DNA of 63,909 bases, the filler included, from Sphaeroforma arctica JP610 (taxonomy: Eukaryota), in assembly GCF_001186125.1 (NCBI RefSeq). It is 7 parts of 3 records of this genome, joined end to end, with 100 filler letters (N's around TTAATTAATTAA, not from the genome) between each part and the next. Parts side by side here need not be neighbours in the genome. Positions count along the whole stretch, not along the records: positions 62,198 to 63,909 come from NW_014040509.1; 6 more parts are not named here. One strand, given 5' to 3'. Shown here piece by piece: positions 1 to 63,909 of the stretch. The notes beneath the pieces are model-generated. The model saw nothing but the letters and a program-made list of their open reading frames with translations. It was not told where the DNA came from and did not search any database. The position numbers were made by a program, and so were the translations under genes. Numbering within the stretch: position 1 is the first letter of the stretch; each line of letters starts with the position of its first letter.

Positions 1-317
1 TATATATATACTATAGTATTGGTATATATCAGGAATTATATATCACAGGCTACCGTCGTCTCTCAGGATATTGATTCATCTAATGAACTGATGGTTTCCA
101 TTGACCTACTGTGCCCTCCTCATCTGCATAGAGAGTCTCAAGGGTCTTAGGGTTTTAGCTATGGTTGAGCGTCCACTTGAACAAAATCATATATATAAAA
201 TAAACCTTTGAAAGTAGTGTACTTCGTGTCTTTATTGTAGTAATAATATCTTTATTGTATTTTCTAAATGATTGCCCATTCTGGACAAGATATGACTCGC
301 AACTCGTCAGAAGCTAC

Positions 318-5378: not shown

Positions 5379-8300
5379 AATTAAATGTAACTATGAGTTC
5401 TACCTGCACTTAGATCGAATGCGTAAACGTTGCTACGTGTCTGATATATATATTAAATTTGTACGTGACTCACGCATGCACACTTGCCCAGGGCCGCCCC
5501 TGGAGTCAGGCCAGCCATTGGTGTCAGGGACTCAGGGCAAAATACTATTTCTTTAAAAACATAGTTAAACGGTACTCCCTACATTGTTTTGTTTATTGTT
5601 TGATCATTTTTTTTAAGTATTTCTAAATAAAACATAGTGTTTTCCATACTATACTATATATTTTTAAATTTTTTAAACGAAAACAAACCAAAAAAAAACC
5701 CCTTTATAAAAATATTTTTTAAATTAGGAATTTTTATTGATAACAATATCGAATCATATTACTTTATTTTAGGCAAGTCACTCTAGCCTCCCTTGCAAAG
5801 TCCAAAAAACTCAAAGGACCAAGTCGACAAGAGGACTTTTTTTTGAAGTTAAATGTCTTTATAACAGTTAACAGTCAACAGTTTATCCATTTCTTTTTTT
5901 TATTCAAAAAAAACAAATATAAAAAAATCCTTATTTTCATATTTAAAAAAAACAGATATGTAAACTTTATATGTATCGGCCTACCTTTAACAGCTGTTTA
6001 TCATCCGCTGTATGTATTTAGTTATTAACTTATTGTAGCCTGTACAACAAGTGTACATGTCGCCAGTTTGCCACGGAAGCTTCGGTTCGGACTTCGAAAG
6101 ACTGGAAGGCGGAACCGGGAATACAGCCTCTGAGGCCTGAGCCTAGTTTTTACTTTTTACTTTTTGCACAACACTGACAACAGGGCGCAAGTCGGAACGT
6201 GTACTGTCACTGTGTAGTGTGTACATAGCACATATACAGACGACACACACACACTTACACAGTCACACACTGATGACACTCGGACTCAGAAGTGACTAGC
6301 TAGTAGCTAGTCACAAACTGATAACACTCAGATTCTCAGTCTGGCGGCTGACCGACAACAAGGGATTTTAGATTTTAACCAGCCATATTTACATGTGTAC
6401 GGTATCGTGATTTTTGTTTTGTTATTTTTCTTGTAACAAAAAGGACAAGAATAAACTAATACCCACACTCAAAAGAGTTCATGCATCTCTCTAGAGATTC
6501 TAGAGAGTGAGTTCTGAACTTCTGAACTTCTAGAAGGAGTGAACCAGCATACTCCTTTCGTCTTCGTACCTTTAATTGGATAGTTTTACAAACCATTTTA
6601 AACATTTAAACAAATTTACATTCCTATATTCTAAACAATCGCTATATCTGTATATCATAGGCCATAAGTCATTTATAAACACCTATTTGTTTTTCCTCAG
6701 CGGCTCAGCCTAGGGGCTGGGAGCCTGGGACTCTTGGCACTTGGGAATGGGAGGCTACGCGACTGAAAGTCAAAATAAAGTTTATTTGCTTTTTTTCTTT
6801 TAACACAGGGCATTCCAGCTCTTTAAATACACTGATTGAAGGGTCTTTTTAAAAACCTTAAACCCTAAAACTACCAAATATATGCACGTTGGACACGAAG
6901 AAATGATGTGACGTCATCAATTGTGAATTGATGTTTGACATGTTCTCTTCGAGGCTATGAGTAAAATCTGAAAGGCTAAACCTATGAGACCTACGTCGCC
7001 CAAGTACCGAACTGAAGATATTTCGTTTTATGAAATAAACAGCATCCCCTACCAGCTTCATGGGACCAACTCTCCTATAACGACAATTACCACAACTTCA
7101 TTGAGGGCGTACAGGTCGACAGACTTCCACCTGAAACCAGGTGTGACTCCGCGATGTATTGTGTATAAGCAGAAGAATTCCAAGCTGATGGCTTGGGAAG
7201 CGGAAATTTGCGATACGAACTATAAACGAGGTATAATTGAGCTCAGAGACTTCTTTAGCAAGACCCGCTTGTTGGCGGTCATCACGCGTAAAAATCCGAG
7301 AGTTGACTCCAAATCAGCGGAAGACATTGTTATTTCCCCGACTATTCGGTCGCGAACGAAAATTTCGACGTAGAACCGTACCCCTGCAAATGAAGGACGA
7401 GGGTCTTGGCCACCCTTGTAATGCCGACACCAGGTCATGTGTCAACATGGCATGCAGATTTAACCAACTTAAATATACGAAACGCTCCCGCAGGTACCAA
7501 ACATGTATCACGTCTAAAGATTATGTTTGGCAACCGATTGTAAGGTGATCGGGGTCAAACTGGGTTTCTTCTTTAATTTCCAGCTGGTCCTCTGTACCAA
7601 TACTTTACAACGAATGGGCCAGAAGATCCTTCACTTTGTCGACGAGGGTGACATGGTTGAGTCCAAGAATGGCCATTGGCACACGATGGAGTCGTACGTT
7701 GCCATAGCGTGGAAGCACAACATATGACTGTGTCTTTTGAAGACATACCTAAAACCCTACAACCCTTTATTATTTAATACCTTTTACATATTACCTAACA
7801 GATATTTGGACAAGACCATTAAAAGGCCCCAGTAAAATACCAAACATAAGATTTGGACTAGTTCTATTAATAGAACTATTTTTACTTTCCAAATCTATTT
7901 ATATCTGAATACTTCGGTAGCGAGATGACTCAACCGAACATAGGTTTCTAATGACTATTAGCGTTGCTTAGTTTATCCTCCGTTCAACCAACCAGATGTG
8001 CCAGTCTGACGAAGGCTAAGTCGGTAATTCTTGATAAGTGGCAAGTTATTGGTTAATGCAATAACTATGGACATCAGGAGTATTTTTTTCTTTCATCTTT
8101 TTAAATTTTCCGAGGATTGCGTTTTCTCGGCCTGTCCCTTTCGAGATTTTGCCTTCTTCGCTGGTGGCTTCTGTGGCTCCGTAGTCACATTACCTCCAGA
8201 TGAACCTACACCCAAGTCAACCAACTTCTTACGTTTCTGTTTAGTCAGAGTTGGTACCGGTTGTACCGGCGTGATCTCAGTTGCTTCAGATTCCACTGAT

Positions 8301-20255: not shown

Positions 20256-23200
20256 TTACTCTTCATCATCTCCTTCATCGCTCTCGTCCTCACTGTCACC
20301 ACTGTACTCCACCATGTCATCGTCGGCCGCATCCTCGTCTTCTGATTGGCTGTCCTCGGACTCTGACTCTGAATCAGAGGTATCTGCCAATGAAATCGTA
20401 GGTATAGTTACAGGGATTATAAGTTCACCTGTCTTGGGTGTAAATTGTGTATAGACCAATAGGTCTGGATCAAGGCTAGTACAGGCACACTTGCATGTAT
20501 CTGCCAATGATAATGTAGGTATAGGTACAGGGAATATAAGTTCATCTGACTTGGGTGTATAATTATGTATATAGTAAAATATAGGTCTGGATCAAGGGCA
20601 GTACAGGCACAGTTGCGTGTATATCTGCCTTGTGACTCAGATATAAGCACATAACCTTCTGGCCGAAAATGAGGATAGCTGATGGCAGGTACATAGATGA
20701 ATACAAAACAAACAAAGCAATGGATCCTAATACAATGCCTGTTGAAAAGCAAACAGTATATACGTACACTAATATTCATGGCAAAGACAATACACGCACA
20801 TCCAGTAGTTTAAACGGAACACAAACATTATATATATCCATATTCAAAGTAAAGGCAAATACATGCACATCAATGGAAAGCAAACATTATAAACATCCAT
20901 ATTCATGGTAAATAAATACACGCACATCCACCAATTCACATGGGAACGCCGATATACCTTCATCCTTGAACGTTACAGCGTTCTCCTTCAGTCCACTCAC
21001 ACCATCCAGTTGTGCTTGTACCGATATCTGAGACAGACAGACAGAGAGAGGGAAAGTGACAGTGTGCAATAGGGTGAGCACAATGCTTCTATTGTATACT
21101 ATGACACTATGATCTTATGATACTACGATCATATGATATTATGATACTACGATCATATGATCTTATGATACTACGATCATATGATACTATGGAGACTTCC
21201 CACATGATTGCGACTTCCTGTCGTCCACATGGTAGTTTATAGATCTGATCCACGTGTCAAATGCATACGTCGCGCGATGCGAGATTATATCCGATGTTAC
21301 AAGTATGCGATTGGTATTACACACAAGCATGTGATAAGAACGCTACCCTCGTAAGCATATGATAGGACTACACTTATGAAGTATGAGCGTATCGATGCGC
21401 ACAGGCATGTGGTGCTCATACTCAAAACTATGCAGGTGTTTTCCTGGTATGTGCTTGTGTATTCTAATGGCGCTTCACGGTGTATTGGTCCGCGAATCAG
21501 GACAGTTGCAGTCCTTCTAGATACCAAAGGGGTGCAGGACAGGACAGAGAAATGAACCCATCAACGAGTACACGCGGACAGTTAGCCAAACCTGACCAAA
21601 CTAGACTACGCGCACACCAGAACCTTCTTTGCGCAATATATGAACGATACTTCAATAAACGCTTGCGACGCTACATCGGGATGGACAACGTTACACACAC
21701 AAAGGAAGGTAGATGATACAGCCTGAACACGCACCCATACAACCAGTGACAAGCTAGCACATCCCAACAGGGCATACTTTCTGAGACTACGGAACTACGA
21801 TCCAGCTTACTCAAGGACTGAATGAATCAAAACGCCCCTTATGTACACAGCAGCTATACATTCGAACAACAAAGCAAAGTAAAACCCACTATAACCCAAC
21901 CCAACGCTTAACGATACGCACCTGGCTCAACAGCAGATCCAGCCGACCATTCAGCGCCAAAAGCTTCCTGAACACACTCAACCGTGCGTCAACCAACGAC
22001 GACAGACCCCCCAGACTCTCCCGCACGTTGGGGACAGTCATCAGGTAGGATGTGTGGACTACCATCACCGTCTTAATCCACGGCACCAGCTGAGCGCCGC
22101 GAACCGGCTTGGCCTGGAATTTGGCTACGATAGCCTCGAGGAAGGGGATGACGTAGGGGGTGGGCAGGTGCTGCACTGTGTTACGCACCACGTGCTCGTT
22201 GGTGTTGGAGATACACTCTTCCAGAAGGGACAAGTCGTTGCTGTGTAGGGCCTGCAGGGGTTTAGGGGGTAGTTTTAGGGAGTAGGGAAGGGGGTTTAGA
22301 GTTTGGGGGAAAGTCGGATAGTTTCTTTTAGGGTTTAGAGGGTTAAGGCGTGTAGGCTTTTAGGGGGTAGGTAGTAGGGTTTAGGGTTAGAGGAGGGAAT
22401 TATCAGTTTTAGAGTCCAGGAGAAGTCGGATCGTTTCTTTGCAAGGCCCGTACGTTTCCAGAGAGCAACAATACATCAGTGGTCACTACACGAGGAGATA
22501 TATATATACACACCCACAAATAGGGTTTTAGAGTTTTATTCAGCACGGCAATGGATAGTCCAACTGTCGCTGAAGTCAATAACGAGTGAAAACTGGGTAC
22601 TACCAATGCACAAGCATAGCCTTCGGATTTAGAAGGCCATGACACAAGAGCATGTTATACAGATGACACAAGAGCATGTTCAAATAAAAGAAATACAGAT
22701 ACAACTATTACACTACATTACCAATGCACAAGCATAGCCTTCTGATTTAAAAGGCCATGACACAAGAGCATGTTCAAATAAAATAAATACATATGCAACT
22801 ATTACACTACATTGGTTCATAATAGCAATGACTCAACAACTGACAGATCCCGCTACGATATCACTGTGGCATGGATTCGCAAGCAAATGGGAAAGGAAGC
22901 TACGCCCACACCGAATTCGTCGTGGGGATTTGGATTCAAGACTGGTGTTCTGCATGGACAAGTATATACACCCGTGTATCTGTAAAATGCTGTGAATGTG
23001 TAGAGGTATCTATAGAAAACATCGGAATCATGCATGGGCAAGTATATACACACGTGTATCTGTAAAATGCTGTGAATGTGTAGAGGTTTCTATAGAAAAC
23101 ATCGGAATCATTAAGGGTAGTACACACATACGCACCTGCGCCAGAAGTTTCGCCAGGGAATCGGCCTTGGTGGTTTTGCCCCTGCTGCGCTTTGTGGGCA

Positions 23201-26200
23201 TATCGTCCTCTTGCTCGATCTCAATCATATCGCCCAATACAGGCCCATCCTGTTGGCTGGTCTTGGGTGTTTTCTTCTCTACTTGTCCGTCGAGGTTCAT
23301 AGGCATTTCTGCGGGTGGTTACAGCGGTGTTATTAGGGATGCATGGATGTCAATGCATGTGCATATGAAGAAGTCAATGCATGTGCATATAAAGAAGCCA
23401 AGAGTATGATGCTCGTTGTGTATGCTTCAGAGCGGAATCGAGTCCAACATGCACGTCAACTAAAACCCTAAAACATAAACCGTGTACGCCCCCACATCTA
23501 CCTCAAATCGCTCGCCCACCAAAACCAAGTTTACAATCCAATCCCAACACACACCAGAATGCACGTTATCCGCTCCAATGATATGTGCGTTATCCCCGGC
23601 CGCCTTGATTCGGCTAGCGCGTGCGTCGGCGTCTGACTGCTGAGTGGCTGCCATGAGATGTATCGGTGCACGGGCCATAGTCCCCCCGTCACTCCATTTA
23701 CCAGTGCTCTCTTTGTACGAAACGTTTTCAATAGCCGGGCGTAACGGCGTACCCCTCACCACACACAGCTCATTCTCGGGCAGGCGCGCATTGAAACAGG
23801 CGTACAGGACACTGGTTGGGACAGAGCCGGATTTGTCCTCTGAACCTGCCTCTGTGCTTGGTGTCTCGGATACGAATGTGCACCTGAACACCGGGTTTTT
23901 GGACTGCTTTCCGCTTGATTTGGCCTCTTTCTTGTTGGGCACCTCCCACACTCGCACTTCATCCGCATGCGACACGGCGACTACATTGCATTGCTGCATC
24001 AAAATATAAGATATTGGGATCGGCTGAGTCGTGCGATTGGGCAAAAGCTTACGATCCATATGCATATACAAGCATTGAGGCGCTATGACACCTACAGCCG
24101 TACAGAGATAACTATTCAATCAGGAACAACACGGAAACAATCTAGAATCATACAAAAGCAAACAATACCAAAACAACCTAGAATCATACAAAAAAAACAG
24201 TACCAAGCGGTGTAGAAACATACGAAAACAAACAGTACCAAAACAATCTAGAATCATACAAAAACAAACAGTACCAAGCCGTGTAGAAAATCGCCAAAGA
24301 TTTTCAAAGTCATATACTCCCAGTACACAACCCCCATCCAATTTAAGGCAGAAGACCTTCTGTAGATCTCACTCCCACACAGCATGTACAACTCAAGTCT
24401 TGGGGTTTTACCCTCCATCCACCAGCACGGCCACAGACACCAACCCAACCCGAACGTTAAACCAACTCAACCCAACCCATATACCACCACGACCACAGAC
24501 ACCAATCCAACACTCACATACCGCATCAGGCGACGAGCTGTGTGTCACTGCAATGCACTTGCTGGCTGCCTGCAAGGCAATCGCACCGACGGTGTGAGCG
24601 GTCTTGCCCTTGAGGTTCCACACGTTTGCGAATCGACCCACATTGTCGAAGGTCAGGAATTGGTTGCCATTGGGGTACACGCAGATCTGTATGATGCTCT
24701 CCTCTTGACCGGAGAAGTTCTGGTGGGAGAGGGGGAGGGCGTCCAATCGCATCAGTATATGGGCTTGAATTGGAAAGTGTACTTCTCTATCTATCTATAT
24801 GTATATATCTATATGCTGGGATAGAGATAACCCATCTGCAAGGGTGCGAAGTGGGAGCATTGGGAACTACGCTCTCGGCAAAAGCAGCAAACACTTAAGA
24901 TCAATACTACCCTCGTCAGACCTCATACGATTCAAATACGTTAACTGCACAGAGATCAACGTCAATACGCTCCCTTGCGAACACGCATTACCCACAAGAG
25001 TATCAGTACAACACATTCCCTTGCGAACACTCACTACCCACAAGAGTATCAGTACAATACAATCCCTTGCGAACACTCACTACCCACAAGAGTATCAGTA
25101 CAATACGTTCCCTTGCGAATACGCATGCGTGATAGTATAGCACCGTATGGATTCGTTCGTTCTAATGAGTTGCTGGCGCGAGCCGTGCATGTGCTCATGT
25201 ATACGAAATCAGGAATTCGATATGTCATCACAGCAATTAAGATGTAAAAAATAGTTAAACAACCAACGTATGGGTGTGGACACCAAGGATAAACCCTAAA
25301 ACCCTGGAAATAGTACAAGGTTGACACGGGATTCAACGGGGCCAAGGTGTGTTGTGAATAGAAACATTAAGTAGGAAGGCAGTATACAGTCAGGTGAAGG
25401 CAAACTCGAACTCTGTAGTCGTCGATGCATACAGTTGCACGCGCACGCAACGGGTGTGGTGGGAAGGGATGGACAGCTACACCCAGATACATGGGATAAA
25501 CGGAGCGAAGAAGTCCATTCACAGCACTCGATGGACTCTTACAAGCCCTAAACTCCACCCAGCAGGTGCATTGGTTGAGTCTTTATAGGACACTACATGT
25601 CTTGTATTTGTGGTACACGGGGCATATATACAAGTACTTGCACATACCTTTGTGGTTTTTTTAGTGTCGAGATCCCAAAGCTTCACAGTCCTACCGGCGG
25701 TCAATATGCTCTTTCCGTTTTGACACAGCGCCAATGCTGTGACTTTGTGGTCGTCCGCTTGAAACCGACTGAAACACCATAAGGAGATACAAATGAGAAC
25801 CTATATATGAAATACACATATTTATATGAAATACAGGTACATAAATATAAATATATATATACATACATGCACATACATACACGCACACATAAACACACAC
25901 ACACACACGTACATATATATATATATGTATTTGAACATTGGTATATGGCTGAATGTCAAACATGTATATACAATTCTATACCTACTTTCCCCTTCCTCTC
26001 TACATTTAAGGTAGATACATCAAAATTGCAGGATTGGGTTGTTCCGAACGACGGGATGCACGTGCAATAATAGAAAACAAATAATGCGGACGGTACCAGC
26101 ATATAAGGAGTAACCCACGCGTATACAGATCACCCAAATGTTCTATTATAAGGCACTAGCACACATGAAATGCGTATACGCGTTTTCGGATGTTAGTATA

Positions 26201-36300: not shown

Positions 36301-38665
36301 TGTATTTCCTGAGGCGCAAGTTCAGAGATGAGTGTGGGTTGACGGCGTCGGTCAAATACGCAGGTGGATTGCCTACCAGTATGAGTGTGACCTCACAGGG
36401 AAGATGTACTGCCGTCTTGACGCACACCAAGACGGTGGACTCTGAATTAACCGCACCACGCATGGTTGGGACAAAGTATGGTGAGCACGACACCAATTAT
36501 TACTTGCCTTTGGTTACTCCCGGTAAGTCCACAGTGGTTAAATTGGGGGTGGCGGGGTGCAGCACATGCCAACTCCAACCACAGAGACCCAAAATGTACA
36601 TCTGGGATTGGGATGATATGGACGCCATAAAAAAGGCCTACAAGGATAGTGCAACGGGCCCAGTCTTTGCAGATACACTCAGTTTCTTACTACGAGAGTT
36701 GGTCAGATGGGGAGTGATGGATGGGAAGAAGTTCTCGGTCACACAGCAGACCCTCTTGCCTGGATCTGGTGATCGCAAAGACTATTTTACTATAGGATAT
36801 TACGCGTGGCCTTGTCAGGTGAGAAAATGCACAACTGTGTTGTTGTTTCGCGTCGTACTCATATTGGATGATTCTGCTGTAGTATAGAGATACAATCCGC
36901 CAATCTCTGCTTGTCTTTCGTCATTGTTCTCACATCTGCTTGAATGGAAACCCCTCAATTTAATAGGAAGCCCTGAAGTTGTATGGTTGGGGCGACGCAG
37001 TAGGACAATGCGATCCCCCACCCAATAACCTCTGCGTTGCTGACGCGCACTGGGGTAGTGTACCCTATATCGTTTGTGATGGTAAGTTGTTCAAAACAAT
37101 CGAATCTACTTTCAGTTCCCTGATTTTCAATAGTTTATCATCGAGGGAGATCATGTTCTTGCCATTTCTAAAACGATGTCATGCATATTGCAGGGATCCC
37201 GAACAGGGCGGCTTTCGACGGAACATCGAAGGATCATATGCAGCAGATGACAAGATCCGTAACGTCACTAGCCCTGCTATGGTTTTACAGTGATGATGAC
37301 AAGTATGCCCAGGTAGGCCCATATGTTAATAACTGAACTTAGCTTTCAGCTGTTTGCTCGTTACGTGAGTGCATCTAATCACACATTGAATTCCCGAAAC
37401 CCGCACTGGCACTCGCAAATGCATCTATGACGTCTACGCGGACCCGCACATTCAATGAGGTATCCCAATGCACCCTTCAATTAGATTGCTGCCGATCTGC
37501 TGCGGTACTTCTTCCTGGAGGCCACGACAGCGATGAATCCGAATCTGCAATGGGCACAGTACCGCCCGGGAATGCCCTTTGTTGGCTTTGTAAGTTCTTG
37601 ATTCTCATTGCGTACTTGTATAGCAATCGATCAGTGTGCAACATGAGTGATACTTCGTGTGCGCTACTTGAAGAAAACTCGGCGTATCGATCTTAACTTA
37701 TCGATCTACATTTTAATCACTTCAATCTTCTGGTGGGTGTCATACACTTTCGACCTATTTTTCAATTGGAATTTGAAACATCCAACTTATCAGGGAATCG
37801 TTGAGATGGGCCCTTGGTCTGAAATGCTGGACGCAGTTGCGATCATCAGGACGTCTAATTACTGGTCTGAAGCGGAGCATAGACAGTTGATGGATTGGAT
37901 GACTAACTTACTTCAGTGGTTAGAAACTAGCGACAACGGAAAGCTGGCAAGGTACCATCAGAATAACCATGCGACATGGTTCCACAACACGGCTATTGGC
38001 ATCGCACAACACGCCAAAGAGTATCACAGCTACGCCGCGAGTTTTGGACTACAGTTGCTCGCAGCTGTTCCTGCAATCATCAGATCGCAGATTGACAACA
38101 CTGGCTTGCTGCACGAGGAGGTCACGGTAAGTATTTTGTATATATGTATTAAGTTCTTGCTTTATTATGAACCGGCAGTCTTGATTCTATTTTCGATATT
38201 ATATTCACATACGGTCGCCATGAGTAGCTGATTTGTATCTCATTTGTATTTGTTCCTCCACAGAGGAGTAAGAGTATTCACTACCTTTGCTATACCTTGA
38301 CGCCATTCCTACGAATCCGAAGTATGGCGGAAAAGTCTTCGAATGGTAATTACTTTGCCGGTATTTCCGATTTGCTTCTGCAAGAGGCAATCAAGTGGAC
38401 TTACCCCTATATGCAACGGAGGGTGGCGTACCCATACAGAGACATAGATTTGGAATCCGGTTACTACAGTGATGTGTGGCACAGGTGTATGGAACCGGTG
38501 GCGCTCACCACCAGAATCTATCCCAGCCTCAAGACTAATAACGATATGGGTATTAGGATACAAAGGGACGAAGCTTATTGTGTTAATCCTCGCACATTCG
38601 GTCATCCCACGCCCACGTGGGACTTTAACACACTCGCTCTATTCGGTGATATCTCATGCTTATAA
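33337..38665 (+). CDS. Secreted multi-exon protein: Agd3-like (CE18) polysaccharide deacetylase fused to a PL5-like alginate lyase domain
   Basis: Signal peptide; CE18-like motifs LDTQIDDFYL, AFNGKG, WLTHTWNH, VGDNSRADL, IPRFATEIYFD, MRVDPYM|FHQANL (intron 35781-36170); lyase-like motifs SGDRKDYFTIGYYAWP, PYIVCDG, WMTNLLQWL..S..G, NNHATWF; both parts are linked within one exon (36171-~36818). Confidence 0.75.
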
Positions 38666-39192
38666 TCTACCGATAGCATGCGGATGGTAGATCGAATACA
38701 CAGTGACACCATCTTGCAACCTCGACACGATTCGAAGTGCGTAATCGATTTGATATTTCTTTAACAGACAAACAACAGTCTGAAACATAAAGTCTTGCAC
38801 ACCACTCTCAAATTGATACAAGCATCTTCAAGGTATTTGGTTGTTCAATGACTACACTGGCAGCCCATAGTATATCGCTACGACAGTTACGTTCGCTATG
38901 TTTGTTTTCATCGCTATGAAAGTTATAGTCGTGGACAGACTCGGGTTACAAAATGACAAACTTGAATTATCGTATCGACATTGTTTAGTTCGTATGTATA
39001 TCTGCACATCTGAATACCTGAAGTAAATACATTTTTGAGTGAATAAAATAGACACCACGTCGCCACCTGTACGTGATTCCAATGATACGCGTTGTTGACA
39101 TTATCTGCAATTATATCCATTGTACCATTGAGAGTATTCAATATTGGGATCTGGGGAGGCCTATTTGATGTATTGTCTAAATTTTCATAGCC

Positions 39193-39651
39193 TCAAGCTC
39201 GGAAAGTGGAAACCCCCTCTCTCGCAAGCTCCGGCGTGGACGGTTCCGTTAAGATCAGAGGATCCTCGTAAACTCTTCTTTCCAACTCGATCACGCGCGC
39301 CAAAACTCTGTCGCCAACGTCATAGTTTGCGATAAAGTCGAGGAATATCCGTAGCAACCAATCGATCACACAGGCAAAGACTGCGATACCGAACCCATTT
39401 CCGGGTATGGCGATGATATCTGCTAGGGCAAGAACCTCACTTATCCGGGGGGGGCGATCCGGACTCAGAATGTAGTCTTCAACAACGCAGATCATTTCCG
39501 AGTCTCCGTCCTTGAGTAATTTTTCGATCAGTTTGAAGAAATCAATTTCCGAGTCTCCACCCTTGAGTAATTTTTCGACGTAATCCACTTTCGACTCTGT
39601 TGGTTCACCTTCGGGATCCACTTCAGAGCCTACGTTGGTGTGATCCGTCAT
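39193..39651 (-). CDS. Hypothetical 152-aa acidic protein with internal 17-aa duplication, probably element-borne
   Basis: ATG ORF without introns; EKLLKGGDSEI...EKLLKDGDSEM duplication; TATAAATA ~40 bp upstream. Confidence 0.45.
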   Translation of the reverse strand: MTDHTNVGSEVDPEGEPTESKVDYVEKLLKGGDSEIDFFKLIEKLLKDGDSEMICVVEDYILSPDRPPRISEVLALADIIAIPGNGFGIAVFACVIDWLLRIFLDFIANYDVGDRVLARVIELERRVYEDPLILTEPSTPELAREGVSTFRA

Positions 39652-40316
39652 ATTTTTTTAGACTGATAATATTTATCTATCAACCTCTATATTTATACCG
39701 CTCACAAGTCACACATTTTGTTGCGAGACGTTTCGACATTTATAATACTTACCAGTAAGTCCCACCGCGTTCTACCAATAGACCTGGCACCTACCATTAG
39801 ACCTACCATAGTAGCTGGCGTCGGTGGCGCGTGAATCGGTAGGTTGTTGTACAGTGAGACAAATTTCAAGTTGTTGAATTTGTCGAGGCTTTTGCAATTA
39901 TGTGAGCGGACAAGTACTACCGTTCGTCCAAACGGCCCGGGTGTAATGGTACAAGCAAGTTGTGGACGTCAGGGCACCTAGAAAACACCCAAACGCTCGT
40001 CGTTTCCACGCTGCTGTTTACATTTCTTTTATTTGACAAGGTGAGTCCTCAAGTGAAATTTACTGTTCCGCACGACCAAGCGGAACGAATATTGAAAACG
40101 TTCAACCTAATTTTGTTGCGAGACGCTAATTTCGACATTTATAATACTTACCAGACTGGTGCTTCTGCGTTCGAGTACGTGTGCCTGTAAAACCCCAAAC
40201 CCTACGTTCTCTGTGAGCTCTGTGAGAGTTTTCCGACTGTAAAAAATGTGTATAAAAGGCGGGTGATTCACACGGCTTGCTTCACACTTTTGTCTTCTGT
40301 AAAGTAGAACAACCAG

Positions 40317-43300
40317 ATGTTGCGCCTGAACTACCCGATTAATAATCTCGATTCGACGGACACGTTGTATCGTCGTATGCGTTACGAAGACTTTGTCACT
40401 GGTCACCGGCTCATGTGTGAACATACTGTTGTGGAAATTGTCAGGAGCCGCGTTGACGGTCCGGGAACCCCAAACACCGACACCATAATGTTGGCCGCCA
40501 ACTCGACGAACTGGGACGATTTTCTTGCGCGTATGTTCTTCGATCCCAGCTCACCTTGGGGTTTACAGCCAACCACACGAGATCGGATGGCAATGATGAC
40601 GACGGTATAGGAACAACCACGAGATCGGCGAGTCAGTTTGGGGAGAACAAGGATGCGACGTGTGTATTTGATGCACTCATCACGACCGCCCAATTGGTAT
40701 CGAACCTCATACTTTCGCATAACGGCGTCCGAGCAAAAAAGTGTGGTGATGTACTGCTCAATATTCTAGTGCCACTAATTCAGCGTGAGAAAGAAAAGCA
40801 CCTGAGTTTGCGCAAAACGAAGGGTCTTAATGAACTTTTGACGAATCTGGCTGATCGAGCCAATATTTCAATCAATCTAGCGACCATTAACTTGAAAAGA
40901 TTGATGCATATCAAGCCGACGAGGGCGGCAGTATCATGGACGTCCCAGGATATCCGGATCAGGGAGTTGTTGAGCAAACACGTCCCCACCCGGCACCGTG
41001 TCTTTACCATCATGTTCATCGACGTCAATCAGGTGACACATATGAAGATGTCTTTGCGAGCCTATAGGGATCATGTCATGTACACGACGCATCTCGAAGT
41101 CACCAAAGAAGATATAGAGCTTTTGATGCGCAAACATACCGAAGATCCCTGGTCCAACCAAATAAATGCCATCAAGTACCATCGAGGTGGACAACTGGCG
41201 GCCATACATTTCAAGAATATATGGCTCACCACGGAGCTTATCAACATACGCCTCGTCAAGATCAAGGAGCAGTGCCTTGAAGTCCGCCTGGGGGGGCACG
41301 TAGCCCAGTTTGTGAAACTGGCATGCGCGGACTTTCTGAGCTAGAACATGACCGGTGTAGACGACAAGGACTGGACCACTCGGCCCATGGAATTACTTTA
41401 TGGTAACGTCACCAACTCGCGCGCCGTTACACCCAACAGTGTGTTACGTATTGGCGGTGAATCCATGTATATATCGACGCGTAAATTAGCCGCATATGAA
41501 GGCGTGCCTATCATCACGGACTTCCGGACCACAGACCGAATCTTAGGACCGAGTTTTTACTTGTACAAGATCATATCACACGTGAATCCGACCGTGTGGG
41601 AGAAAGTCGTAACCCCCATGGGTCTACATCTAGTGACGCACGTCGATTACTCTCCCGTCATTGTACAGATGCGACAACTGGGATATAGGATCCAGATCAT
41701 CGCCGGATGCTGGGAATGGCGCACTGTAGATTGCTTGGATGTGGTATACCGCCACAGTTTCACCGACTTGGGCCTAAAAATCGTGGACGATCACGATATA
41801 CCCGTGTATCGTAAAGTTTTTGAGATCTTGCAAGAGAGTGAAACTGACACCTATCGCTTACCTTCACATGCGCACGCTGAGGTTATGACTAAAACCCTAT
41901 AAAAAACCCCTAAGACCTTCCACTATGGCGAAACTATCAACGGTGACGCCGTCGTGGGCGTTAACACGACCAATGATCGGGTCTTTGTTGCCATTACAGC
42001 AACCGTCAAGTCACTGACGCGATTCGCTATGCTGGAACAATTGCAGACCCTGGTCCTGGGAGGCGCCACGTTGCTGCGCATATGTGTGGACGGTATTTAC
42101 TTTTCTAACCTCAACACTGCGCATATACATTGACCGTTCCGGATCAAGACTAGCACGTATATTCCGAACCTAGTACTGAACCTTGAACAGTCGACCAACA
42201 CGGACTCGGCGCTGCTAGCCCAGCACCACGAGTTGGACCCCACCGACGTTGATCGGCTCGCGGGGTCCATACATGTCTGCTGCAACATCAAGGGGCTTAC
42301 GCACCAAGACCAGGTCGACGCGTACCTGCAGTTTGCCGGGGAATCGGAACAGCCACAGTTTGCTTTGGAACACGTAAATATCCGAGAAGGTCCGGCCGGT
42401 ACCGGTAAATCGTACATGGCCGTGTTGGGGGATGTCGGTGTCATGCGCGAGTTGCACGGATCATTTCTGACCACCAACACCAACGCTTTGGTCAATGCAC
42501 ACAAGTCCAAGATATTCCATCACGGGGGGTGGGACGGTGTGTCCGTGACCAGCAACGAGGACGGTAATCCGACCATCAACCCCAGCACTCTCACCACCGA
42601 GTACGCGGCCGAGAACTTTGGCACTAACACGGTGCATATGTCGGCGTTTACATGCGACCGCACCCTCTCCGGTGCCAACGGCGGTGAATATAAATACATA
42701 TGGGACTCCTTGGTCAAGTTCATATACGAAGGATCAGGCAAACTGAACGGCTTTATCCCTAAAAGGTCGGATCGACACGAGTTTGTACGTATACTGAGGC
42801 TGCTGAACCTGTACAATGAAATGGCAAACGAGGTAAACTCGTGGAACACCGTGGACGAGGTCAAAGACGCATTCTTGGCTAAGATAAATGCCCGCGACGA
42901 TTCCAAAGAACCCCCGCACCCACTTGGTATCAAACCTTTTCTGGGCGGCCCGAAATCACATTCGGGGGTCCCGAATTGGTTTGATTGCAAGTACGTAATC
43001 CTGGACGAGTTTGCGATGCAGTCACCCAAGTTCGTATTGTGTCTCATAGCCAAGTTCTGGAATGCCAAGGTCTGACAGGCGACCCAGCCTACCAACTGGG
43101 TCATTCGTCTCTGAAGTGGATGGTCATCACGCGCAACTTGGAGTTGCTTAATTCAGCCAAAGTGTCCCGGTTGCCCAACATATCGTACTACCGATACACG
43201 ACCGTTCGGCGGTTCGATACCGGTGACCGTATCAACGAATTGGTAGCTAGGCTGATGGATATACGTACCGGGTTATCCGAAAACATCATCATCTCGGTCA

Positions 43301-43925
43301 GTTACCAGGAGTTCCAGATCAAGAGTATGCTCAAACAGTACTTCCCGGAAGTCCTTATCAAGCGCTCGGAGGGGCTCCAGCTATTCTACGATTCTCGGGA
43401 TTCGCACATGAATTATCTTATATCGGCGCGACGTTCGTGCCCGTACAACGTGTGTACGAAATGGGGTAGATTCTACAGTGAACCCGCGGAAGATGACAGC
43501 ATGCCCCGACTCACCGAGTCCCAGAGAGCCAAGCTACGCCTGAACTGCAATTGTTCGGGCATGAATATTATCCAGCAAGTCCGAGATGAACGCCCGGAAG
43601 ACAAGGTTATCTACAGGGCCAACAATATTGCTAAGATATGGTCATGTCCCGTACTCGAATGCAGCAGTTTGTGAATAGTGGTGTGCCCCAGGGTACCTTT
43701 GCGACTTGCTGTGGCTTTACCGTACATCAATTCCAGGGCGGTACCGTCGACCCTCCGAACACCATCATCTATCATCTATCGTCGGGATGGGAATACACAA
43801 GTGAGATACTCGACGATGCGACAAGAGTTCAAGACCTTCTTCGTGTGCTGCGGCTTTTCTACACATTTGTCAGTCGATGTAGAAGAATCTCCCAAATATT
43901 CGTCATTGACGATGCCCTGGAGTAA
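40317..43925 (+). pseudogene. Degenerate protein-primed PolB-like domain fused to superfamily-1B (RecD/Pif1-like) helicase, disrupted
   Basis: 40556-43075 is a single frame broken by three stops (41342, 41900, 42131); frameshifts at ~40550, ~43070, ~43670. PolB-like FVAITATVKSLTR and LRICVDGIYF (42074-42103); helicase Walker A GPAGTGKS (42389-42412), Walker B ILDEFAM, motif III TGDPAYQL, motif V TVHQFQGGT, motif VI YTFVSR. Confidence 0.8.
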
Positions 43926-43980
43926 GCAATTCGCTGCCTCTTTCGTGTTTCATTTATTTAAAGTATTTCTACATTTAACT

Positions 43981-45059
43981 CTAATCGTCAAGTCTGAGGC
44001 GTTTACGCATTGGTGCTGACATACCGAGCCGCGTAATTTGCACGTTGGCCAGATCAAGTTTGGTTCTGATCTCTCTCAATTCTTCGGCGTGCTTGTATTG
44101 ATCGTCGTCACGACGTTCAGAGATCAAGTTCAAGCGTTGTGACAAACGCGCGTTCTTCTCCTTCAAGATGACCTTCTCGTCTTTTAACACGACATTCTCT
44201 GCATCCAGAGTTTTCTTAATATCAGATGTATGCTCAAGGTTCAGCTTGAGAGTCTCGATGATGTGAGACAGACTGTGTGTCACATTCACGCTCCCCACTT
44301 CCTTAGCAATGTTAGTAAAGTGGCCCACTATACCCTGGAGCTTTTCGCGCGGAAGAGAAAATACTTCCGTCTGCCCCTCGTACATGAACGGCTTCGCGTC
44401 GTGGAGCTCGTGGAAAAGTCCTTGACTGCCTTCTCGGCCTTGGAAGCCAGTTCAGCGGGCATGTATATAACAGCCAGACGTTCCGCACCGGGGAACTTAC
44501 CTTCATGTGCAGTCAGTCGACGCATGATACTTGTTTTGGACATACCGAGCTTGACCACGACGTGGTTGTCGTCTGCGTCAGTGGGTACAGTGCACTTGTC
44601 CTGCAACTGCTCCACGGTCCCGACGAGGATGAGGTAGATCCCCATCTCAAAACAAACAGCCATTTCTGGAGGAATAGTCTTGGAGAGAGACTCCTTCGCC
44701 AGCTCGATAATTGCCACGTCGTCGCGCAGCATGAATGGGTGTAGGATATCCAGCATCCACTTACCATATGGCCCCTTCCTGTCCTTTCTACTTGTAAACA
44801 TGTACTGAACGAGCCCGTCTAGTGAAATGTAGACAGGATCAGTCGCGTCCGATCCGAATCGGAAACACAGCTCATCGTCAACTGATGCCTTTACAATCTT
44901 TGCCCCCATAACTACAACGAGCTTGGCCACATCACCAGCCTTGTAGAATGTACCGGAAACTGTACCGTCCCCAATGGTGTGCACGTCAAATACATCACCG
45001 TCACATGATACAAATAGTGTACTGCTACGTGTGGGTGTGTCCATACTTAACGTTTGCAT
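43981..45059 (-). pseudogene. Bro-N + T5orf172/GIY-YIG-like protein with coiled-coil tail (giant-virus type), one frameshift
   Basis: VYISLDGLVQYMFTSRK...KWML (Bro-N-like); GIYLILVGTVEQL...VVKLGMSK...RRLTAH; restoring one T at ~44415 gives KDFFHELHDAKPFMYEGQTE and joins the 44328-45059 and 43981-44385 ORFs. Confidence 0.7.
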
Positions 45060-45777
45060 TGTAGCGTCGTTGAAAAATCGGATTCGGATTCGTCAGATTC
45101 AGAGTTTGATTTGGATTACAATGCTTTTTTTTACGTTAACGGATTAGAATCGTTGTGAAAGTGACAGGGTGCTTTACCATTGCCCTTGAAGCGTAGGGTA
45201 AATGGTAGTCCGATGTGTAAATCACCCTGACGTATCAAACCGACGGGGTGCTATACCAGCGTAGGGTAAATGGTAGTCCGATTTGTAAGAAAGCAAGGGG
45301 TGAGCTGTGCGAATAGGCCCAGAGTGAGCTGAAAAGCAAGGGGACACGTAATTGCAAGAATCAACGCAAATTTGCAAAAACCACCGTCTGTGTCCGTTTC
45401 AAGCGGACACAAAATTATAATGTCCAGAGGCTTTAAACGTCTCTACTGCACACACTCCAACGGTGATACCACCCGAGTTACCGTTCGAGTCTGGTCTGTT
45501 GGTTCAAAGTTGCAGGGTGGTTTCTGCGCTGCTACCATTAAGACCTTGTCTGAGTCGTAGTTGGATACGTGACGTACGCCGCCATGGAGCTTGTTCAAGG
45601 GATGGGTGCACATGACGAGCCGGGTCGCGTCGTCGTGCTTTTGCATATGGTCCCTTTCTGGCCTTGCGTGAATTGTATATATATATATAAAAATAAATAA
45701 ATAAAATGTCACTCCGCATAATTGGTCGTGCGTGTTGTACCGCGCCGCTTTTGCGTGCAGATGTGCTACCAACCTCC

Positions 45778-46915
45778 TTTGACTACGAGGGTTTTTTTTA
45801 GCAGAAAATCAGCCAGAAAAGAACAGACAACTCGTACCGCGTGTTCAATGACATAAACCGTCTGGCTGAGCGCTTTCCCAAGGCCCGTGGTGGGGGACAC
45901 GCCGACATTACCGTTTGGTGTGCCAACGATTATCTAGGTATGTTGAGACATCCACTGGTTATCGATACGATGCGGCGGGTCATGTCGCTCCACGGCGCCG
46001 GGTCCGGTGGTACACGCAATATCAGCGGCAACACCCGCTTTCACCGCGAACTTGAAGCGGAGCTTGCGGACTTGCACCGCAAGGATGCGGCACTGGTGTT
46101 TACCTCGTGCTACGTGGCCAACGATACTACACTGCAGACGCTGGCCAAGCTTTTGCCTAACTGCATCATTCTGAGCGACAAACAAAATCATGCCAGCATG
46201 ATTGCCGGGATTCAGAATAGCCGCGCAGACAAGGTTGTTTTCAACCACAACGACACGAATGATTTGGAACAGAAACTGGCAGCGCTGGACCCTTTGCGAC
46301 CAAAGATTGTGGTGTTCGAGTCAGTGTATTCAATGTCTGAGGTCATTGCACCAGTTGACGAAATCTGCACGATAGCTCAAAAATACGGCGTACTAACGTT
46401 CATTGACGAGGTTCATGCCGTTGGTATGTATGGCCATGGAGGCGCCGGTGTAGGTGAGCAGTTGGGCAATCACGTGATGGACAAGTTTGATATTGTTGCC
46501 GGTACGCTAGGCGAAGCGTATGGTGTGATGGGAGGGTATATCGCTGGATCCACACGACTCGTGGATACGGTGCGCAGCTACGGGTCCGGATTTATTTTTA
46601 CAACATCGCTCCCCCCAGCCGTTGCATCTGGTGCGCGTGTGAGTGTCAAGCACCTCAAAACGAGTCAGGTGGAGCGCACTAGTCAGAGACGGCACGTGCG
46701 TGAGCTTAAGACACGGCTACACGAGTTGGGGATCCCAATAGCTGAAAACACGGGCCACATTGTCCCCATCTTGGTCGGCGACGCCAAGACTTGCCGTGCC
46801 ATTTCCGACACATTGCTGCAGAAACACAACATATACGAGCAGAGCATCAACTATCCCACGGTACCTGTGGGACAGGAGCGGCTGCGCGTTACCCCAACAC
46901 CGGCACACACCCCTG
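45778..46915 (+). pseudogene. ALAS: Intronless 5-aminolevulinate synthase pseudogene
   Basis: FDYEGFF*QKI..SYRVFNDINR, VWCANDYLGM, GSGGTRNISG, NHASMI, FESVYSM, DEVHAVG; in-frame TAG at 45799; PLP lysine motif GTLGKA changed to GTLGEA; no transit peptide; similarity ends after TPTPAHTP. Confidence 0.88.
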
Positions 46916-47969
46916 GACACGTTCTCGGACGCTCACTGTGCGGTAAAAAATTAGCTTCAGTGTAGGGGCGAAAAGACTCAGACTCACAGAGCCCGAGTGA
47001 AGAAAAAAAATTGAAAAAAAGGTGATTTTACATTTGGCATGAAATAAAGGCATTTTTCGATTTGGTATGAAAAAAAGGCGATTTGACATTTGGCATAAAA
47101 AAAATGGTAAATATGCCACTAAAAAAAGAGTATTTCCAAATACGCGCACTCTAGCAGAGGTCGCCGCCAATACCTGAGGCACGTCATTCAAAGAAACGCC
47201 CAGCTATGGAACGAGCAACACGGCACTCGCTCGCCGAACCATCCCGAGCTTATCGCTCCTTGCATACTTCAGCTCTCGCAAGCCACGGATGTCGATGAAG
47301 CTGGCGAGCCCTATTGGTGACTTTCTGGCTCATTGGCGCCCGCCGGGTAGCAAAAAAAACTTTCGGCCCTAAAATACTTTCGTAGTTGAGCAAGCCAGCC
47401 ACACGCTATTTGATATCTCAACAGGAAAAAAAAGGAAGAATATTTCAATAAATCAAATTCATCTCACGTTCTCTAGATCGACAGACGTTCGACTTCCTCA
47501 ACACTCACCTGACCGATGCGATACTTCCCCCCCCTCCCCCATACCTCTCCAAGTCCGGCTATGGTCCATCAATAGCATGTAAGACCCCCCCCCCCACAGC
47601 ATCGTGTTAATTAAAAAAAGTATTTCGTTCGTCGTTCGTGCATGACACGCACGTACAATCGCTGTCCAAAACACACAGTGACATGCATTTTGCTATAGGA
47701 CATCATAAGTCACACTTTGAGCACCGGCAGGCTTCTCTGAAACCCAATCGCTGCCTTACTCGCCACATTATAGAATCAGGATGAATCACCAGTATCGTAA
47801 GGTCAGCAGTTCTTGGATGATGCCTAATTACTCCAGAAATTTGCGCGCAAGTAGGTTTTAGCGAAACAAAGCCCTCATGGGGGAAAATCTTTGCAGAACA
47901 TGCACAACCAATTGAGCACGAACCTTTGCCAACAGCAGCAGAGGAAGTCTTTCGAGCAAGTCGTGGCTA

Positions 47970-62768: not shown

Positions 62769-63134
62769 ACAGCTGTACTTGGTGGATGGCTGCTGAGAAG
62801 CAAACAGTAGTACCGAACTGATACGGATACTTTCCCATCACCGGATCTATGGCTTGCTAGTGTAGTCCTGACCAGTGTTGTCTGCGGCCGGCTGTATCGC
62901 CCTTGCCGAAGTGGTTATTTCTGTGCCAATCAATGCTTCCCTGCTGAGCTGGTCGTAGCTCTATTAGACAGTCCTCCTACACACTACACTACGGAACTTT
63001 GACGTTCAATACGTTAATGCCTGGTAGGGTTTTAGTTCATATCAATTGATACCTGGTAGGGGGTTGATTCATGTCCATTGGTTATTGAGCACCAACACAC
63101 CCCTCACTCAACCAACGGCTCACTCTGTCTGCAG

Positions 63135-63674
63135 CACGCTGTACTCGCCACGCTGCTGTACGGCAAGGAATTCCGCATAACGCACCAAGAGATGATCAAG
63201 GGCATCAAACGCGACGGAAAGTATGTGCCTTTTGTGTACACCAGTTGAATAGCAATTGATTTGTTAAGTATGTATCGTCCGCATAACCCACCAAGAGATA
63301 ATCAAGGGCAGCAAACACGACCTAAAACCCTAAAACGGAAAGTATGTGCCTTTTGTGTGAACTAATTGAATAGCAATTGATTTGTTAAGTATGTATCGTC
63401 TTTAGTGATGGGCATTGGGTAGGCTGCTGTCCAGTCGTGGTTGTTTGTGCATGTCATGTGCTGAGGCGATCGGTGTAGCGTACAGGATAGTCGCATTACA
63501 GTGCAAGTAATCTTATCAGTACTGTTTTTTTAATTTAAATTTATAATACTACATACACGTCCGCACGTACTCAGGGGCGTCAATCTGAAGTATTTTGAAA
63601 CCCTTGTTGTGCCTATCATCGACAACACCCCGGAGGAGCGCGATTTGACGACGTTTATGGCCGATGCTATGAAG
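63135..63674 (+). CDS. APIP: Methylthioribulose-1-phosphate dehydratase (APIP/MtnB/Mde1), two internal exons 63135-63220 and 63575-63674
   Basis: HAVLATLLYGKEFRITHQEMIKGI...K|GVNLKYFETLVVPIIDNTPEERDLTTFMADAMK; GT-AG, phase-2 junction; not in the ORF track. Confidence 0.88.
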
Positions 63675-63833
63675 GTAGGTTGAGGATACACATTTGGGTT
63701 TGTCGCGGTTGGAAGAGATGTATTCATTGCCTGGGACGGTGCCATGAGGGGTTTCTACGTTGCTGCGAAGCTGTCGTAGGTATGTACTTTCATGCAGTAC
63801 GTCGTGAACATACACACATACACACACACACAC

Positions 63834-63892
<59 letters not shown>

Positions 63893-63909
63893 CACATATA
63901 TAATATATA

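What the first reader, a model, noticed from the sequence alone, without database searches (positions are those of the whole stretch)
63173..63400. Paired-copy evidence of a clean telomere-like micro-insertion
A ~107-bp segment (3' half of the APIP exon plus donor) is tandemly duplicated. Copy 1 reads aaacgcga-cggaaagtatg. Copy 2 reads aaacacga-CCTAAAACCCTAAAA-cggaaagtatg (63321-63335). The extra 15 bp are two (CCCTAAAA) units with no template in the flanks, so slippage cannot explain them (seen). Copy 1 is the coding exon and the insert carries an in-frame TAA, so the insert is the derived state. Telomerase-templated patching of internal breaks is a known origin of short interstitial telomeric sequences; that this happened here is inference.
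Basis: partly seen in the sequence, partly recalled or inferred. Interest (0 to 1): 0.85.

Follow-up and report, generated by a model that had tools for sequence, protein, structure and literature searches.

The report
Telomerase-like scars in protist introns
A 15-base telomere-like insert sits in a dead copy of an exon inside an intron of a single-celled relative of animals, and its 11-base core recurs nine times in this window with the same end point, so these are likely scars left when telomerase patched broken DNA, a process known from mammals, which would also predict this organism's still unreported telomere repeat.

Summary
A 106-nt tandem duplication copies half of an APIP exon plus its splice donor. 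Copy 2 carries 15 extra bases. Contigs from two DNA runs bridge the insert unchanged. A spliced contig uses copy 1's donor, so copy 2 is intronic, and spacing against human APIP shows the empty state is ancestral. On the G-rich strand the insert reads as a 2-nt GT duplication around TTTAGGGTTTTAG, with GT in register. Its core, TAGGGTTTTAG, occurs 9 times in the window against 0.05 expected, and none of the 9 continues into a full further repeat. That fixed end is what a telomerase template boundary would leave. Best reading (0.6): telomerase-primed repair of a staggered break, as for mammalian short interstitial telomeric sequences and the model for plant telo boxes. Not shown: the chromosome-end repeat, telomerase itself, and genome-wide enrichment among insertions (0 of 12 visible indel rows in repeat copies were telomere-like; 125 were hidden). 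Nearest named proteins are ichthyosporean (Sphaeroforma, Creolimax). The scan noted telomere-repeat inserts in three other genomes. Known kind of event; the new part is the lineage, the density and a predicted template.

The parts
63135..63220 (+). Coding exon of APIP/MtnB (methylthioribulose-1-phosphate dehydratase); its 3' half and donor are copy 1 of the duplication
   Evidence: PDB 4m6r match E 1.8e-6; covered by spliced contig of X18
63221..63574 (+). Intron (GT..AG, 354 nt) that holds all of copy 2
   Evidence: joint 63220 to 63575 in X18, a run only guessed to be RNA
63174..63279 (+). Copy 1 of the 106-nt tandem duplication (empty state)
63280..63400 (+). Copy 2, a dead partial exon plus donor; 4 substitutions in the exon part, 3 of them changing the amino acid
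63321..63335 (-). 15-nt insert; on the minus strand a 13-nt telomere-like core (63322-63334) between two copies of GT (63320-63321 and 63335-63336)
63575..63674 (+). Next APIP exon
   Evidence: PDB 4m6r match E 3.4e-5
63025..63035 (+). Nearest other copy of the 11-nt core, inverted relative to the insert, upstream of the APIP exon
61894..61916 (+). Telomere-like tract with the 11-nt core (61905-61915) at the end of a small tandem array whose earlier unit lacks it
   Evidence: ambiguous as a filled/empty pair
56797..56854 (-). 58-nt degenerate TTTAGGG-type tract in an XPO7 intron, abutting a dead partial copy (56697-56792) of the next exon; possible second filled/empty pair
   Evidence: far flank not significant (356 of 5000 random pieces score as well)
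54450..54493 (+). Tract with the 11-nt core in an XPO7 intron, about 20 nt before the 3' splice site
58701..58868 (+). Two TTTAGGG-type tracts (58701-58729, 58855-58868) in an XPO7 intron
41889..41917 (-). Tract with the 11-nt core inside a decayed ORF of a multi-copy virus-like element; another copy lacks the motif at the protein level
22256..23474 (.). Three tracts (22256-22415, 22521-22538, 23460-23474) in introns of a WDR43/Utp12-domain gene, intron bounds read from the sequence
141..158 (+). Tract with the 11-nt core 160 nt past the stop codon of the large ORF 318-5390
7748..7766 (-). Tract with the 11-nt core in intergenic DNA

Best explanation
[quoted passage not shown] Shown: the insert is real, derived, intronic, a perfect TTTTAGGG-type sequence, and flanked by a 2-nt GT duplication that is in register with the repeat. 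Shown: the same 11-nt core recurs across the window with a fixed 3' end. Inferred: the break, the action of telomerase (one partial round of 5 nt and one full round of 8 nt, or one short addition later doubled by slippage), fill-in of the C strand and end joining. Predicted: a chromosome-end repeat of type T3-4AGGG and a telomerase RNA template close to CUAAAACCCUA. The insert itself most likely has no function; it survives because it is inside an intron.
For: Reads and splicing. Ancestral spacing: 6 residues between the matched blocks in both human APIP and the empty exon pair. Core TAGGGTTTTAG 9 times against a mean of 0.05 in 100 shuffles and 0.03 in 100 Markov simulations. 19 exact T3-4AGGG runs of 10 nt or more against a mean of 1.5 (max 4) in 40 simulations; 11 of 19 end at AG or AGG, against 14 of 61 simulated runs (binomial p 0.004). 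Of 10 sites with TAGGGTTTT, 9 go on with AG, 4 with AGG, none with AGGG. The Arabidopsis template CTAAACCCT (PMC6765143, passages) ends its product at the same phase. In-register bases and short target duplications are described for mammalian short interstitial telomeric sequences (PMC2246262, PMC7215372). Cores also lie in a dead exon copy and a decayed virus-like ORF, where selection for a binding site is unlikely.
Against: The telomere repeat and a TERT gene of this organism were not seen. Two bases in register arise by chance in about 1 of 16 sites, and a blunt reading with no duplication fits the alignment equally. The core is also sharply bounded at its 5' side, which fits a one-round product but also a protein-binding motif. 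The phase test is post hoc, from one window, and some runs are pieces of one tract. No telomere-like insertion of 5 nt or more among 12 indel rows in other self-duplications (which missed the focal pair itself), nor among 12 shown indel rows and 7 distinct fill-ins in other copies of the repeats at 39000-49200 (125 and 2 rows hidden). The 2 insertions among 26 laboratory mutations of Sphaeroforma arctica are +AG and +G (PMC8963540, supplement rows). Longer tracts use the 7-nt unit and several variants, which one 8-nt template does not explain without stuttering or a past change of template.
Confidence: 0.6

Rival explanations
1. The insert was copied or captured from existing telomere-like DNA or RNA (a telomere fragment, a telomeric transcript, or another short tract such as the inverted one 285 nt upstream) by polymerase-theta-type or other end joining, without telomerase acting at this break.
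For: 11 of 15 bases stand inverted at 63025-63035, and an identical 15-mer is at 23460-23474, so donors are plentiful. Capture and telomeric-RNA routes are named alternatives for mammalian cases (PMC2246262 section 14; PMC7215372 passages).
Against: The near donor differs from the insert beyond the 11 bases on both sides and offers no exact priming match. Fragments of a long telomere array should end at any phase, not mostly at AG/AGG.
Confidence: 0.22
2. TAGGGTTTTAG is a protein-binding site (telo-box-like) kept by selection, possibly unrelated to present chromosome ends; this insert is a chance copy of such a site.
For: Both ends of the 11-mer are sharp. Plant telo boxes occur at a similar density (155 per Mb in Arabidopsis, PMC3022908 table, against 142 per Mb here) and act as promoter elements. 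Most cores lie in or near housekeeping genes.
Against: Cores lie mostly in introns in both orientations, in a dead exon copy and in a decayed virus-like ORF. Many have degenerate extra repeats 5' of the core, as old additions would. Selection explains survival, not origin.
Confidence: 0.11
3. Ordinary small mutation: a short untemplated addition later doubled by slippage, telomere-like by accident.
For: The insert has an internal 8-nt period, so its second half can come from slippage.
Against: The first half still has no template in the flanks, and the result matches exactly the most over-represented non-microsatellite 11-mer of the window.
Confidence: 0.06
4. Assembly or sequencing artefact.
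For: Draft assembly with many gaps; the site lies in a tandem duplication.
Against: Contigs of two deep DNA runs bridge the insert with no differences.
Confidence: 0.01

Closest known systems
Short interstitial telomeric sequences inserted at double-strand breaks in mammals (PMC2246262, PMC7215372)
   Same: Filled and empty copies, bases in register with the repeat at the primer side, short direct duplication of the target, no other change of the flanks.
   Different: Under two units long (those surveys began at four units); unit is TTTTAGGG-type, not TTAGGG; empty state comes from a tandem paralog, not an ortholog; no telomerase-RNA flank seen; telomere repeat not established; density of short tracts appears far higher, though thresholds differ.
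Plant telo boxes (AAACCCTA) and the non-processive telomerase model for their spread (PMC3022908)
   Same: About one repeat unit, a favoured phase, similar density per Mb, proposed origin from one round of telomerase.
   Different: Telo boxes are concentrated in 5' regions and serve as promoter elements; here the cores are mostly intronic and no function is shown. Here one birth event can be read from a filled/empty pair.
Chlamydomonas- and Theileria-type telomere repeat TTTTAGGG with TTTAGGG variants (PMC6549138, PMC3622300)
   Same: Same unit and the same mix of three and four T.
   Different: Those are proven chromosome-end repeats in other lineages; choanoflagellates and sponges have TTAGGG (PMC3622300 supplement, PMC5405514), so this would be an independent change within Holozoa.
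Telomere sequence insertions in human cells (PMC5388398, seen as search listing only)
   Same: Telomeric repeats placed at internal sites in telomerase-positive cells, raised by breaks.
   Different: Somatic and experimentally observed; here a fixed evolutionary scar, inferred from sequence.

Membership tests
Short interstitial telomeric sequence inserted at a break | An empty ancestral copy of the site exists | tested here: met
   Copy 1 is empty, spliced and matches human APIP spacing
Short interstitial telomeric sequence inserted at a break | The inserted sequence is the organism's own telomere repeat | not testable with these tools
   No genome held; no ichthyosporean repeat found in paper searches and look-ups
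Short interstitial telomeric sequence inserted at a break | [quoted passage not shown] | tested here: met
   GT in register on the G-rich strand; only 2 nt, about 1 in 16 by chance
Short interstitial telomeric sequence inserted at a break | End-joining marks (clean join, small deletion or target duplication) | tested here: met
   Reads as a 2-nt duplication or as a clean blunt join; the two cannot be told apart
Short interstitial telomeric sequence inserted at a break | At least four repeat units (working threshold of the mammalian surveys) | tested here: not met
   1.9 units; a search threshold, not a mechanistic limit
TERC-ITS (insert with telomerase RNA flank) | Non-template telomerase RNA sequence beside the repeats | tested here: not met
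   All 15 bases are repeat or target duplication
Plant-type telo box | Over-represented motif of about one unit with a favoured phase | tested here: met
   9 against 0.05; fixed 3' end; one window only
Plant-type telo box | Enriched in promoters and 5' UTRs, with regulatory effect | tested here: inconclusive
   Most cores are intronic; those at 7749 and 61905 are intergenic; no functional test possible

The most novel reading that the evidence does not exclude
This ichthyosporean genome carries on the order of ten to twenty thousand one- to two-round telomerase footprints. Telomerase would then be a routine contributor to break repair and intron growth, and the footprints would spell out both a non-TTAGGG telomere (T3-4AGGG) in a close relative of animals and the template (about CUAAAACCCUA) of a telomerase RNA not found in the papers searched.
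Probability: 0.35. Interest if true: 0.68.

Novelty: new member of a known kind. Interest (0 to 1): 0.45.

Why it matters
The single insert is a neutral scar of a known type. Its value is as an anchor: it shows one birth event of an 11-nt motif that is about 180-fold over-represented in the window and has a fixed end. If that end is a template boundary, it gives an 11-nt search key for the telomerase RNA and a prediction for the telomere repeat of a lineage next to animals and choanoflagellates, for which the papers searched give neither. It would also offer a cleaner test of the one-round telomerase model for short telomere motifs, so far argued mainly from plant promoters where selection blurs the origin.

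Tried and rejected
Whole genome not held, so no chromosome-end or genome-wide test. No RNA holder on record among 24 listed runs; X18 is only guessed to be RNA, though its contig skips a GT..AG intron. Homolog search with the Utp12 exon: 0 hits among 5 candidates. Protein atlas unavailable twice. Metagenome scans for relatives: 77 pattern hits, none confirmed; 0 matches to a 22-nt junction pattern. No Rfam family in 60300-63909. The 4-nt CTAA indel at 40126-40129 between two near-identical 40-mers was rejected as a telomerase product: it is not in register and CTAATTT stands 18 nt upstream as a local template. A second CTAA row at 20769 shifted on realignment. The XPO7 dead-exon pair is suggestive only. 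The tract at 41889: another copy (P0003) reads HRC where this copy reads KTL-stop, and one contig of another copy fails to align over 41833-41929, but the bases were not shown. The binomial on four-T runs used 9 of 11 and left out the run at 22326, which also ends in AG; the unselected figure 11 of 19 is the one relied on. Paper searches for the 11-mer gave 34 papers, 30 listed, none on ichthyosporeans by title. TeloBase itself could not be queried, only one supplementary file; file 1 of the PMC3622300 supplement was not searched; either could list this organism.

Full report
Observation. The window holds a tandem duplication at 63174-63279 and 63280-63400, with TC shared at the junction. The copies differ by 8 substitutions in 107 aligned bases and by a 15-nt insert in copy 2. 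The gap has three equal placements. Of 4 runs laid, the DNA contigs of X1 and X14 span 63250-63395 with no difference from the window; X16 carries the insert at low depth and starts only 7 nt left of it. The insert is therefore real. These runs may be the same strain as the assembly, so they say nothing about polymorphism.

Gene and direction. The exon 63135-63220 and the next exon 63575-63674 both match human methylthioribulose-1-phosphate dehydratase (APIP; PDB 4m6r, E 1.8e-6 and 3.4e-5). A contig of X18, a run guessed to be RNA, joins 63220 to 63575 across a GT..AG intron. Copy 1's donor is used and copy 2 is intronic. Six residues separate the two matched blocks both in the human protein and in the exon pair without the insert, so the empty state is ancestral. 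Copy 2 has also changed residues that match human APIP in copy 1 (M to I, I to S). The in-frame TAA is real but irrelevant in an intron.

Organism. The nearest named proteins are an 82% identical protein of Sphaeroforma arctica and an 86% identical exportin-7 labelled CFRG0134T1, a label I recall as Creolimax fragrantissima. The window is therefore ichthyosporean, most likely Sphaeroforma.

Anatomy of the insert. On the G-rich (minus) strand the empty site reads TTTCC GT CG and the filled site TTTCC GT TTTAGGGTTTTAG GT CG. This is a 13-nt addition between two copies of GT, where GT is in register with GGGTTTTA. A blunt reading, GTTTTAG plus GGTTTTAG with no duplication, fits equally. Both end the addition at TTTTAG.

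The insert is one of many. A local-alignment scan found 17 tracts like (CCCTAAAA)n and 18 like (CCCTAAA)n, largely the same places and some of them loose, against 0-2 and 0-3 in 8 simulations each. TAGGGTTTTAG is the most dispersed 11-mer that is not an AT or AC microsatellite: 9 copies against 0.05 expected, or 142 per Mb. There are 19 exact T3-4AGGG runs of 10 nt or more against a mean of 1.5; 11 of 19 end at AG or AGG, against 14 of 61 simulated runs (p 0.004). Of 10 sites with TAGGGTTTT, 9 continue with AG, 4 with AGG and none with AGGG. The 5' side also drops after TAG. Four tracts lie in XPO7 introns (exons mapped with P0006), three in introns of a WDR43-like gene, one in the APIP intron with another just upstream of that exon, and one in a decayed virus-like ORF, in both orientations. 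The test is post hoc, from one window, and some runs are parts of one tract.

Mechanism. An 11-nt unit bounded by TAG on both sides is what one round of a telomerase with template CUAAAACCCUA would write (8-nt repeat plus 3-nt anchor). The Arabidopsis template CTAAACCCT is one repeat plus a 2-nt anchor (PMC6765143, passages) and ends its product at the same phase. In mammals, filled/empty comparisons show in-register bases at about three quarters of sites and occasional target duplications from staggered breaks (PMC2246262, outline, two of three parts of Results and one Discussion section; PMC7215372, passages). For plant telo boxes a one-round, non-processive telomerase has been proposed (PMC3022908, passages). 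I give telomerase-primed repair 0.6. The break, the enzyme and the joining are inferred. Copying from existing telomeric DNA or RNA (0.22) and a selected binding motif (0.11) remain open.

Results against, or not in favour. I could not see chromosome ends. Nine paper searches and passages or supplement look-ups in PMC3622300, PMC5405514, PMC10767889, PMC12221973, PMC12695648 and PMC12572184 gave no telomere repeat or TERT for an ichthyosporean; choanoflagellates and sponges are listed with TTAGGG. Other duplications in the window gave 12 indel rows of 3 nt or more, none a telomere-like insert of 5 nt or more. Laying contigs on 39000-49200 showed the stretch is largely multi-copy, but none of 12 shown indel rows or 7 distinct fill-ins was telomere-like, with 125 and 2 rows hidden. 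The two insertions among 26 laboratory mutations were +AG and +G (PMC8963540, passages and supplement rows). Three further filled/empty candidates (56797, 61894, 41889) are suggestive but not resolved. The long tracts use the 7-nt unit and recurring variants such as GGGTCTTAG; Chlamydomonas telomeres also mix TTTTAGGG with a few TTTAGGG (PMC6549138, passages), but whether this organism stutters or has changed its template is unknown.

Earlier notes of the scan. None on this genome or on look-alike sequence. Three notes on other genomes describe telomere-repeat inserts in or as introns. I did not test them and they are not independent evidence.

Verdict. A real, derived, functionless insert of a known kind, new for this lineage. 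Its interest lies in the window-wide motif with a template-like end, which makes two cheap predictions: the telomere repeat and the telomerase RNA template. Interest 0.45.

Noticed in passing
window 39100-45200: Decayed multi-copy element (contig depth up to about 7 times single copy). ORF 41345-41899 matches an unnamed 1369-aa protein P0005 (E 1e-3), and a P-loop ORF follows at 42134-43075. From recall it resembles a Polinton-like virus polymerase-helicase gene; not tested.
   Followed up: partly
window 56697-56792 and 56251-56583: A second dead partial exon copy, in an XPO7 intron just upstream of the true exon, abutting a 58-nt telomere-like tract.
   Followed up: partly
window 22256-22415 and 54450-54493: The two tracts are C-rich on the sense strand and end within about 20 nt of 3' splice sites, so they stand where the branch and pyrimidine signals would be.
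   Followed up: no
window 141-158, 41889-41917, 58715-58729, 61897-61916: The variant GGGTCT(T)AG recurs four times at the same position of the repeat; it could be a telomerase error or a template variant.
   Followed up: no
window 45802-46965 (as listed, plus strand): Intron-less, multi-copy ORF that reads like 5-aminolevulinate synthase (recalled, no family search succeeded), next to the virus-like element; probably a processed or captured copy.
   Followed up: no
window 318-5390 minus strand: 1686-aa intron-less predicted surface protein with cysteine/proline repeats and a C-terminal membrane segment; its only relative found is an 82% identical Sphaeroforma arctica protein.
   Followed up: partly
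window 34112-38665: Multi-exon gene or gene pair with Agd3-type deacetylase and alginate-lyase Pfam matches.
   Followed up: no
window 49276-50417: Several near-identical pieces of a retrotransposon-like protease segment around an assembly gap; may be partly an assembly collapse.
   Followed up: no
window 13269-62197: Six assembly gaps carry a 12-nt spacer between two runs of 44 N; these are scaffolding marks, not biology.
   Followed up: yes
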